Shown here: positions 22,983 through 24,824 of the stretch, in pieces | Layout: each line of letters opens with the position of its first letter | Position numbering within the stretch: position 1 is the first letter of the stretch | DNA from: Eledone cirrhosa | Taxonomy: Eukaryota | Reading direction: 5' to 3' | Length of the DNA stretch: 64,000 bases | Assembly: GCA_964016885.1 (NCBI GenBank) | Contig: OZ024743.1 | Location: forward strand, 241,428,001-241,492,000 | Translations under genes and position numbers: made by a program | The notes under the pieces: generated by a model | Database searches by the model: none | The model's input: only the letters and a program-made list of their open reading frames with translations | What the model was told of the DNA's origin: nothing

Positions 22983-23154
22983 ATATACATATATATATAT
23001 ATATATATATATATATATATATATATATATATATATATATATATATATATATATATATATATATATATATATATAAATATAAAACCAAGGTTTAGCAAAT
23101 AGAGAAAAAGTTATAAGATACATTTTAAAAAGTTCGCTGTACTTACTATATGTA

Positions 23155-23236
23155 CCCTTACCGCGCGGTTTCAAATCACAAAATAAATGGATAATCCATG
23201 CGGACCACCATTGAGAAGGGGATTCTCGTCAGAAGG
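23155..23236 (-). ncRNA. Type I hammerhead ribozyme with long stem II loop (family G, downstream copy)
   Basis: CCTT-CTGACGA-GAATCCC...GTGATTT-GAAA-CCGCGCGG-TA-AGGG; one stem II mismatch. Confidence 0.78.
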
Positions 23237-23643
23237 TTCTTCTCGCTCGGAGAATATAAAATTCTCGAGTTCAAATCACAAACTGGCGCCATACAAAACT
23301 GTTCCCGGATGAGAGAGAATGAGGAAGGAATCAATTTTGTCTAGTGCCGTGTGTAAAGACAGAAGGCAGGGGCGGACATGTCAATGTCCTGCCACTAGAA
23401 ATAGCACCAGTTCAAACGACCAAAATGTTATTTCAACCTTAGGGGAGATTAATAATAATAAAGTATGTGTTCCTACGTGTAAAAAATACATATAGGGACA
23501 CAAGTATTATCCAACCGTATGCCAATGTGGTTCTATGGCAGGTTAATAAATTAACGAGCCAGAACATATAAAATCAAGGTTTAGCAAATAGAGAAAAAAT
23601 TTCAAAATAAATTTTAAAAAGTTCGCTGTACTTACTATATGTA

Positions 23644-23725
23644 CCCTTACCGCGCGGTTTCAAATCCCAAAATAAATGGATAATCCATGCGGACCACCAT
23701 TGAGAAGGGGATTCTCGTCAGAAGG
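23644..23725 (-). ncRNA. Type I hammerhead ribozyme with long stem II loop (family G, upstream copy)
   Basis: CCTT-CTGACGA-GAATCCC [~39 nt] GGGATTT-GAAA-CCGCGCGG-TA-AGGG. Confidence 0.85.
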
Positions 23726-24824
23726 TTCTTCTCGCTCGGAGAATATCAAATTTCCGAGTTCACATTACAAACTGGCGCCATACAAAACTGTTCCCGGATG
23801 AGAGAGAATGAGGAAGGAACCAATTTTGTCAAGTATTTTGGGATTTGAAACCGCGCGGTAAGGGTACATATAGTAAGTACATCGAACTTTTTAAAATGCA
23901 TTTTAAAACTTTTTCTCTATTTGTATATATATATATATATATATATATATATAGAGAGAGAGAGAGAGAGAGAGAGGGAGAGAGAGAGGGGGGAGGAGAG
24001 TCCCTCTCATCAGTCGACCTCTGGAGTTCCTTGTTGAATCGCTGCATTAAGATTGATAATATACAAACATTAATTTTTTTTATGATTTTCGTTAGTACGT
24101 TCGCCCTATATGGATAGACACACCGGACACCGGGTGAGATGGGAGAGGGAGACAGGGGATAGGAGAGAGAGGGGGTGGAGAAAGTGGTGAAAGAGAGTGG
24201 GAGTGAGAAATAGTGAGAGAGAGAGAGTAAAAAAATGTTGGTAAAGCCGATAATATGCGGCTAAAAATATAAAGATAGAACTGGAGTAAGGACAATGACA
24301 AACAACGAAATAATGTTTTACACAATATATTTTATCATGGTATTTCTAGATAAAGACTTTTTCAAATAATAACCGATGAATGCAGACAAATGAAACGTTC
24401 TGTTCTCACGAACTTTTCCTGCGTTGTGTGTGATTGATTGTTGGTGAAAGTGGGACATCAGTTGGCCAGTTTACTCCACGCTCAGCACATGCCTATTTAT
24501 AATGGGTTCCTTTAATTTCTGAATTACCCACGTTCCTCTCGGAATCATCTATGATAGCCTTAATATCTCATGTGTGGCCTTTCTCCAGGTTTCCTTTGAC
24601 AGGGAAAGCATATTTTGTTTGTCTTCTAATTCTCCGCTCAACCTCACCTTTCCCATTCTTCACTAGATTGTGTTGTTTTAATATTTACAATCCCATATGC
24701 ACTGTCTTTCCAAGACACAACAACTTGGTTATATATATATATATATATATATATATATATATATATATATATATATATATATATATATATATATATATAT
24801 ATATATATATATATATATATATAT

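What the first reader, a model, noticed from the sequence alone, without database searches (positions are those of the whole stretch)
23077..23925. Family G: two tandem hammerheads exactly 489 nt apart
Seen: complete HHRs at 23644-23725 and 23155-23236 on the minus strand, with GC-rich palindromic stem III (CCGCGCGG) and no ORF between them. The left end again lies at an internal TATAT word. Inference: a minus-strand transcript of this locus could form the dimeric HHR and excise a 489-nt monomer with ends suitable for ligation into a circle, making this a potential source locus.
Basis: partly seen in the sequence, partly recalled or inferred. Interest (0 to 1): 0.82.

Follow-up and report, generated by a model that had tools for sequence, protein, structure and literature searches.

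The report
Dead-end copy of Penelope-footprint retrozyme
This is one ageing copy of a 489-base non-coding repeat that carries a predicted self-cutting RNA motif and was likely spread through an animal genome by Penelope-type jumping genes; the two motifs are real, but this copy has left no detectable offspring and is probably not a source of the family.

Summary
Observation confirmed: two type I hammerheads on the minus strand, predicted cut sites 489 nt apart, no ORF. Family copies show Penelope-like footprints: two fixed 3' ends, variable 5' truncation, head-to-head arms, (TA)n targets. Stems I and II covary between subfamilies. It fits a metazoan non-LTR retrozyme. 'Source locus' is not supported: a variant shared by both repeats occurs nowhere else (2 hits, both here, against 48 for the family allele), the repeats differ by 5%, and the arm is predicted to block cleavage in read-through RNA. 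At least 15 other loci have the same double motif. Copy structure favours, but does not prove, a circular template. Cleavage, RNA and partner enzyme are untested. The scan already noted this pattern for other hammerhead families of this genome.

The parts
23077..23565 (-). Full 489-nt unit (u1 = 23565, u489 = 23077); ends at the family's major fixed 3' end
23566..23834 (-). 5'-truncated upstream unit (u221-489), 269 nt, 95% identical to the downstream unit; pseudo-LTR-like
23834..23923 (+). Inverted arm (u381-470), 90 nt, joined head to head with 1 nt overlap; antisense to both hammerhead 3' halves
23643..23726 (-). Type I hammerhead 1; predicted cut 3' of 23648
23154..23237 (-). Type I hammerhead 2; predicted cut 3' of 23159; stem II weakened by a change at 23178
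23159..23647 (-). Predicted 489-nt monomer after double cleavage; 38% GC, 67% paired as a circle
   Evidence: prediction only
23316..23316 (-). Variant u250 T, unique to this locus (second copy at 23805)
22978..23076 (.). (TA)n target microsatellite, 3' side
23924..23953 (.). (TA)n target microsatellite, 5' side

Best explanation
The locus is an old, dispersed insertion of a 489-nt non-coding hammerhead repeat (a non-LTR retrozyme) that was likely written into a (TA)n microsatellite by a Penelope-like element's enzyme, and it is likely a dead-end copy, not a source. Inferred steps: a two-hammerhead locus elsewhere was transcribed, cut to a monomer and probably circularised; a Penelope-type endonuclease nicked (TA)n; reverse transcription began at a fixed internal site 82 nt past the cut site and ran 758 nt, more than one turn, giving partial unit plus full unit; a second, oppositely pointed cDNA gave the inverted arm. 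Shown: the anatomy, the family, its end classes and targets, covariation, the lack of offspring. Predicted only: folding and blockage by the arm. Untested: cleavage, RNA, circle, enzyme.
For: Main arms end at u484-489 in 69 of 85 loci and at u106-114 in 8 of 85, with scattered 5' ends. 3' flanks are TA-rich in 69 of 83 and 21 of 24 arms of the two classes; 26 head-to-head pairs, 15 of them joining one end class to the other. These are the Penelope features described in PMC8557442 (passages) and explained by two internal RT starts in PMC11167929 (main text read). An intact 938-aa RT + GIY-YIG element with flanking hammerhead variants is in the genome, and its copies end 76 or 142-144 nt past the cut site in (TA)n. 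One template per insertion: private variants shared between repeats 20 of 255 (4.8 expected), between arms 13 of 89 (1.9 expected), no upstream/downstream signature in 40 tandem loci. For a circle: 19 of 83 arms reach one unit or more, only 2 of 74 stop near the first cut site, 0 insertions at the junction in about 175 segments, no overlapping triple among 16 double-motif hits. No offspring.
Against: No partner element shares recognisable sequence with the repeat (best E 0.015-0.025 over 29 nt, antisense to the ORF; tail z at most 0.8). Second-class arms stop 8-33 nt short of the cut site in 8 of 19 first passes against 3 of 76 for the first class, which could mean a linear RNA end. The arm here ends at u470, neither usual end. 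Shared variants can also come from gene conversion or from many RNAs of one source. One divergent locus spans 2.2 units (L116), so lost master arrays are possible. PMC11167929 found cleavage dispensable and uncut RNA the main template in vitro.
Confidence: 0.8

Rival explanations
1. The locus is, or was, a working source: an internal promoter starts between the arm and hammerhead 1, so the RNA lacks the arm, cuts twice and circularises.
For: Both cores are intact (113 of 150 family segments are); it is one of 16 loci with both exact 15-mers; dimeric fold costs 6-9 kcal/mol without the arm.
Against: 0 of 130 other segments from 101 loci and 0 other exact genome hits carry its founding variant; no segment shares more than 2 of 8 markers; no promoter found: no sense B-box match, nine runs of four or more T on the sense strand. 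Being expressed without having had offspring is not excluded.
Confidence: 0.1
2. Same element, but the template was linear: cut monomers joined by template jumps, or uncut multimeric transcripts of master arrays now lost or unassembled.
For: Second-class arms pile up just before the cut site; L116 holds 2.2 units; uncut RNA is the template in vitro for an Anolis element (PMC11167929).
Against: First-class arms cross the cut site almost always (2 of 74 stop) with no added bases; uncut 1.x-mer transcripts would give ever shorter copies (inference); no triple found (exact pattern, so decayed arrays can be missed).
Confidence: 0.3
3. DNA-level origin: a solo Penelope end or satellite unit duplicated locally by unequal crossing over, with the hammerheads as passengers.
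For: This route is proposed for vertebrate arrays in preprint 10.64898/2026.07.22.740005; the two repeats share a private variant.
Against: Dispersed copies have a fixed 3' end, scattered 5' ends and inverted arms; stems covary across subfamilies; no ORF-bearing parent found.
Confidence: 0.05
4. Endogenised copies of an infectious viroid-like RNA circle.
For: Size, non-coding, strongly folded.
Against: Hammerhead on one strand only; no strand-biased editing scar; 0 pattern hits in metagenome and viral contigs (weak, exact patterns).
Confidence: 0.03

Closest known systems
Metazoan non-LTR retrozymes (Cervera and de la Pena 2020, PMC7229834: passages, mussel section and Discussion read; review PMC7761336: passages)
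   Same: Non-coding repeat with one type I hammerhead per unit, palindromic weak helix III, GC below 45%, thousands of copies, highly paired predicted circle, Penelope-like elements in the same genome.
   Different: Unit is 489 nt (170-400 nt in that paper; 51-972 in Li et al.). Copies are dispersed fragments and 1.x-mers, not arrays. Fixed ends and head-to-head arms are not described in the parts read. RNA and cleavage are not shown here.
Non-LTR retrozymes as non-autonomous Penelope derivatives (Li, Clavereau, Pollet 2026, 10.64898/2026.07.22.740005: parts 1-3 of 5 read, all main text; supplements not seen)
   Same: Same class and same proposed helper. That paper found cleavage in only 1 of 9 genomic dimers tested, a caution for this locus.
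   Different: They link the two by co-occurrence and pLTR homology; here the link is the insertion footprint, and no homologous pLTR was found.
EN+ Penelope-like elements, Neptune type (Craig et al. 2021, PMC8557442: passages; Frangieh et al. 2024, PMC11167929: main text; Cervera and de la Pena 2014, PMC4209133: passages)
   Same: Partial tandem plus inverted 5' copy, optional tail between two RT starts, AT-rich or microsatellite targets, type I hammerhead upstream of the RT start.
   Different: No RT or GIY-YIG ORF; tail about 110 nt against 30-40 nt described; canonical C3-G8 core with a long stem II, whereas the local autonomous element has a U3-A8-type core.

Membership tests
Metazoan non-LTR retrozyme | Canonical type I hammerhead in each unit | tested here: met
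   covariation at stem I and II pairs, (few independent events: four subfamilies)
Metazoan non-LTR retrozyme | At least two tandem units with complete hammerheads | tested here: met
   two hammerheads in a 1.55-mer; 8 of 85 sampled loci
Metazoan non-LTR retrozyme | Non-coding, low GC, highly self-paired monomer | tested here: met
   longest ATG ORF 42/58 aa; 38% GC, 67% paired; z -4.6
Metazoan non-LTR retrozyme | Dispersed multi-copy family | tested here: met
Metazoan non-LTR retrozyme | Self-cleavage of the RNA | not testable with these tools
   folding energies only
Metazoan non-LTR retrozyme | Expression as linear and circular monomers | not testable with these tools
   no RNA holder listed
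Penelope-mobilised element | Partial tandem with 5' truncation and inverted 5' copy | tested here: met
Penelope-mobilised element | Two fixed 3' ends separated by an optional tail; AT-rich target | tested here: met
   u484-489 and u106-116; TA-rich flanks
Penelope-mobilised element | Terminal homology with an autonomous partner | tested here: inconclusive
   none significant in 30 short and 20 long GIY-YIG loci out of 10,596 candidates
Autonomous Penelope-like element | RT plus GIY-YIG ORF | tested here: not met
Source (master) locus of the family | Descendant copies carry its founding variants | tested here: not met

The most novel reading that the evidence does not exclude
The family records two reverse transcriptases of one Penelope complex starting about 110 nt apart on a single hammerhead RNA circle and priming from both sides of a (TA)n break: the leading one runs past the ligated cut site and round the circle, the trailing one often stalls 50-75 nt after meeting the leader's cDNA. 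Rare two-hammerhead copies like this one, not arrays, would be the only seeds, and an inverted arm over the ribozyme would switch such a copy off at birth.
Probability: 0.4. Interest if true: 0.6.

Novelty: new member of a known kind. Interest (0 to 1): 0.32.

Why it matters
The locus itself is ordinary. The family adds genomic support for a step that the retrozyme papers read here propose but do not show: Penelope enzymes copying a ribozyme-made RNA circle for more than one turn. It also gives a cheap method for any claimed source locus: look for a variant shared by both repeats and count its carriers in the genome. Younger hammerhead families noted earlier in this genome are better material for the bench test.

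Tried and rejected
Rfam scan: 0 matches at gathering score. Sequencing runs: no RNA holder listed; three runs of one sample, kind not on record, laid as contigs, showed only many family variants; no evidence on expression either way. The first within-locus count (206 of 671) was inflated by three divergent loci; recomputed on 242 of 278 segments after dropping L065, L086, L116, unassigned and over-12% segments. Partner search: no significant homology; the first hammerhead scan missed U3-A8-type cores. Promoter: sigma-70 scan is irrelevant to an animal and at chance level; one antisense B-box-like 9-mer is within what chance gives (my rough estimate 0.2 expected). A CTGATGA at about 24010 has no matching GAAA and belongs to another old repeat. 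Long ORFs in the window: 15 scanned, hits are LINE-like RT/endonuclease domains at 36-49 kb, unrelated. Metagenome and viral contigs: 0 hits. Earlier notes by sequence and near place: none. A Fisher table used 21 arms at risk; corrected to 19.

Full report
Observation. The minus strand carries two type I hammerheads at 23726-23643 and 23237-23154, with predicted cuts 3' of 23648 and 23159, 489 nt apart. They sit in 269-nt direct repeats of 95% identity. The monomer has no ATG ORF above 58 aa, folds at z -4.6 and, as a circle, is 67% paired at 38% GC. Rfam gave no match at gathering score. In unit coordinates (u1 = 23565, cut after u407) the locus reads, 5' to 3': (TA)n, an inverted 90-nt arm (u381-470, 23923-23834), a partial unit (u221-489), a full unit (u1-489), (TA)n.

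Family. The genome is a 3.0-Gb animal assembly; earlier scan notes call it a cephalopod, which I did not test. DNA searches gave 2,987 and 2,391 first-look candidates, 40 scored each, best non-self identity 95% and 97%. Exact patterns gave 337 hits for a 26-mer of the tail and 209 for a whole hammerhead, controls 0. Of 71 near-full segments, 67 fall in four subfamilies (40, 16, 7, 4), 3.2-4.9% from their own majority, so the family is not recent. Across 150 hammerhead-spanning segments, stem pairs change on both sides: u329-u412 A-T 114 and G-C 18; u343-u391 A-T 62 and G-C 44; u346-u388 C-G 71 and T-A 50; u332-u409 T-A 47, T-G 45, C-G 43. These are a few events along subfamilies, not 150 independent ones, but they favour selection for the fold. 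Cores are intact in 113 of 150.

Insertion footprint. I took the first 100 listed of the 337 tail hits (contigs C1 and C2), 85 distinct loci. Main arms end at u484-489 in 69 and at u106-114 in 8; 5' ends are scattered; 30 have an inverted segment; 14, 63 and 8 span zero, one and two hammerheads. Remapped as 127 arms: 83 end at the first site, 24 at the second, 20 elsewhere; 3' flanks are TA-rich in 69 of 83 and 21 of 24; 26 head-to-head pairs occur, 15 joining the two end classes and only 2 joining like ends. Partial tandems, inverted 5' copies, an optional tail and microsatellite targets are described for Penelope-like elements (PMC8557442, passages), and two internal RT starts bounding the tail were shown in vitro (PMC11167929, main text). 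The genome has 10,596 GIY-YIG candidates. One fetched locus (L179) has an open 938-aa frame with RT (E 2e-6, just under the Pfam cut-off) and GIY-YIG matches, a CX4CXXC motif before the nuclease, and a hammerhead variant on each side. Its family ends 76 or 142-144 nt after the cut site in (TA)n; the repeat studied here ends 82 and about 190-198 nt after it. The geometry is alike, but the tails share no sequence (z at most 0.8), and the best hit to 50 fetched GIY-YIG stretches is 29 nt at E 0.015-0.025, antisense to the ORF. The helper is therefore inferred by kind, not identified.

Template. After dropping three divergent loci and unassigned or over-12% segments (242 of 278 kept), 46 of 50 direct pairs and 43 of 50 inverted pairs at a locus belong to one subfamily; private variants are shared in 20 of 255 cases (4.8 expected) and 13 of 89 (1.9 expected); 40 tandem loci show no upstream/downstream signature (best p 0.04 of 93 tests). 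So each insertion came from one RNA or one source's RNA, or was converted later. First-class arms reach a unit or more in 19 of 83 cases and stop near the first cut site in only 2 of 74; no insertion was seen at the junction in about 175 segments; the 16 genome-wide hits for two exact 15-mers at unit spacing do not overlap, so no intact triple was found. A circle explains this most simply. Against it: second-class arms stop 8-33 nt before the cut site in 8 of 19 first passes against 3 of 76 (p 7e-5), which fits either a linear end or a trailing enzyme meeting the leader's cDNA; one old locus spans 2.2 units; and uncut RNA was the main template in PMC11167929. No editing scar was found.

Is this locus a source? 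Both repeats carry u250 T, so it was likely present at insertion and any offspring should carry it. It is absent from 130 other segments of 101 loci, and the exact 24-mer occurs twice in the genome, both here, against 48 for the family allele. No segment shares more than 2 of 8 monomer markers. The repeats differ at 13 of 258 sites and the monomer at 13 sites from its subfamily majority. Folding: isolated hammerheads cost 1.8 and 7.3 kcal/mol to reach the active form; the arm pairs with either at about -130; in a nascent RNA with the arm, hammerhead 1 costs 54 against 4-6 without; in the full transcript each can form singly (4.5, 12.4) if the arm takes the other; the dimeric form costs 8.8 without the arm and 47.3 with it. 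A transcript starting inside the partial unit would escape the arm; I found no promoter. No RNA run was listed, so expression is open.

Known and new. This is a metazoan non-LTR retrozyme by every sequence feature tested (PMC7229834, PMC4209133, PMC7761336, preprint 10.64898/2026.07.22.740005; extent read given under Closest known systems); cleavage and circular RNA could not be tested. Searches for retrozyme with cephalopod and hammerhead ribozyme with octopus listed no paper on such a family, and a six-term search on Penelope and circular templates (listing only) showed no title that demonstrates the step; the library lacks most subscription papers and the preprint's supplements were not seen. 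The scan already noted two-armed, Penelope-footprint hammerhead families of 310, 422 and 467 nt in this genome. I had seen the two end classes before that look-up; the reading of two enzymes on one circle is taken from those notes and was only partly tested here. A related family of about 460 nt aligns to this unit at z 9, keeping the core, the first end word and the hairpin just after it. Verdict: real motifs, known kind, new family, probably dead-end locus.

Noticed in passing
window 17600-17645 (-) and 17831-17876 (+); 54428-54498 (-) and 54559-54629 (+); from 20253 (+): Other hammerhead families in the window, two as head-to-head pairs; the one at 20253 has a U3-A8-type core and recurs beside a GIY-YIG locus (L173).
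   Followed up: no
L179:2300-7500 (G000:C1:145868500-145877500): Apparently intact Neptune-type Penelope-like element, 938-aa open frame, U3-A8-type hammerhead on each side, ending in (TA)n.
   Followed up: partly
L180:6500-7420: Related hammerhead repeat of about 460 nt in partial tandem; shares the first-end word and the following hairpin with the 489-nt unit, a candidate binding site for the enzyme.
   Followed up: partly
window 22480-22985: Another repeat of about 340 nt between two 85-nt direct repeats (97.6% alike) next to the 3' (TA)n; pieces recur at 1803-1943, 2420-2500 and 4391-4559.
   Followed up: no
window 23995-24060: Fragment of an old low-copy repeat with a CTGATGA word but no complete hammerhead; 5 other matches.
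   Followed up: partly
window 36454-49012: Several broken LINE-like elements with RT, zf-RVT and AP-endonuclease-family matches on the plus strand.
   Followed up: no
subfamilies 4 and 5 of the 489-nt repeat (e.g. L014, L064): The stem III palindrome is two bases shorter but still palindromic, as expected if it works by dimer pairing.
   Followed up: partly
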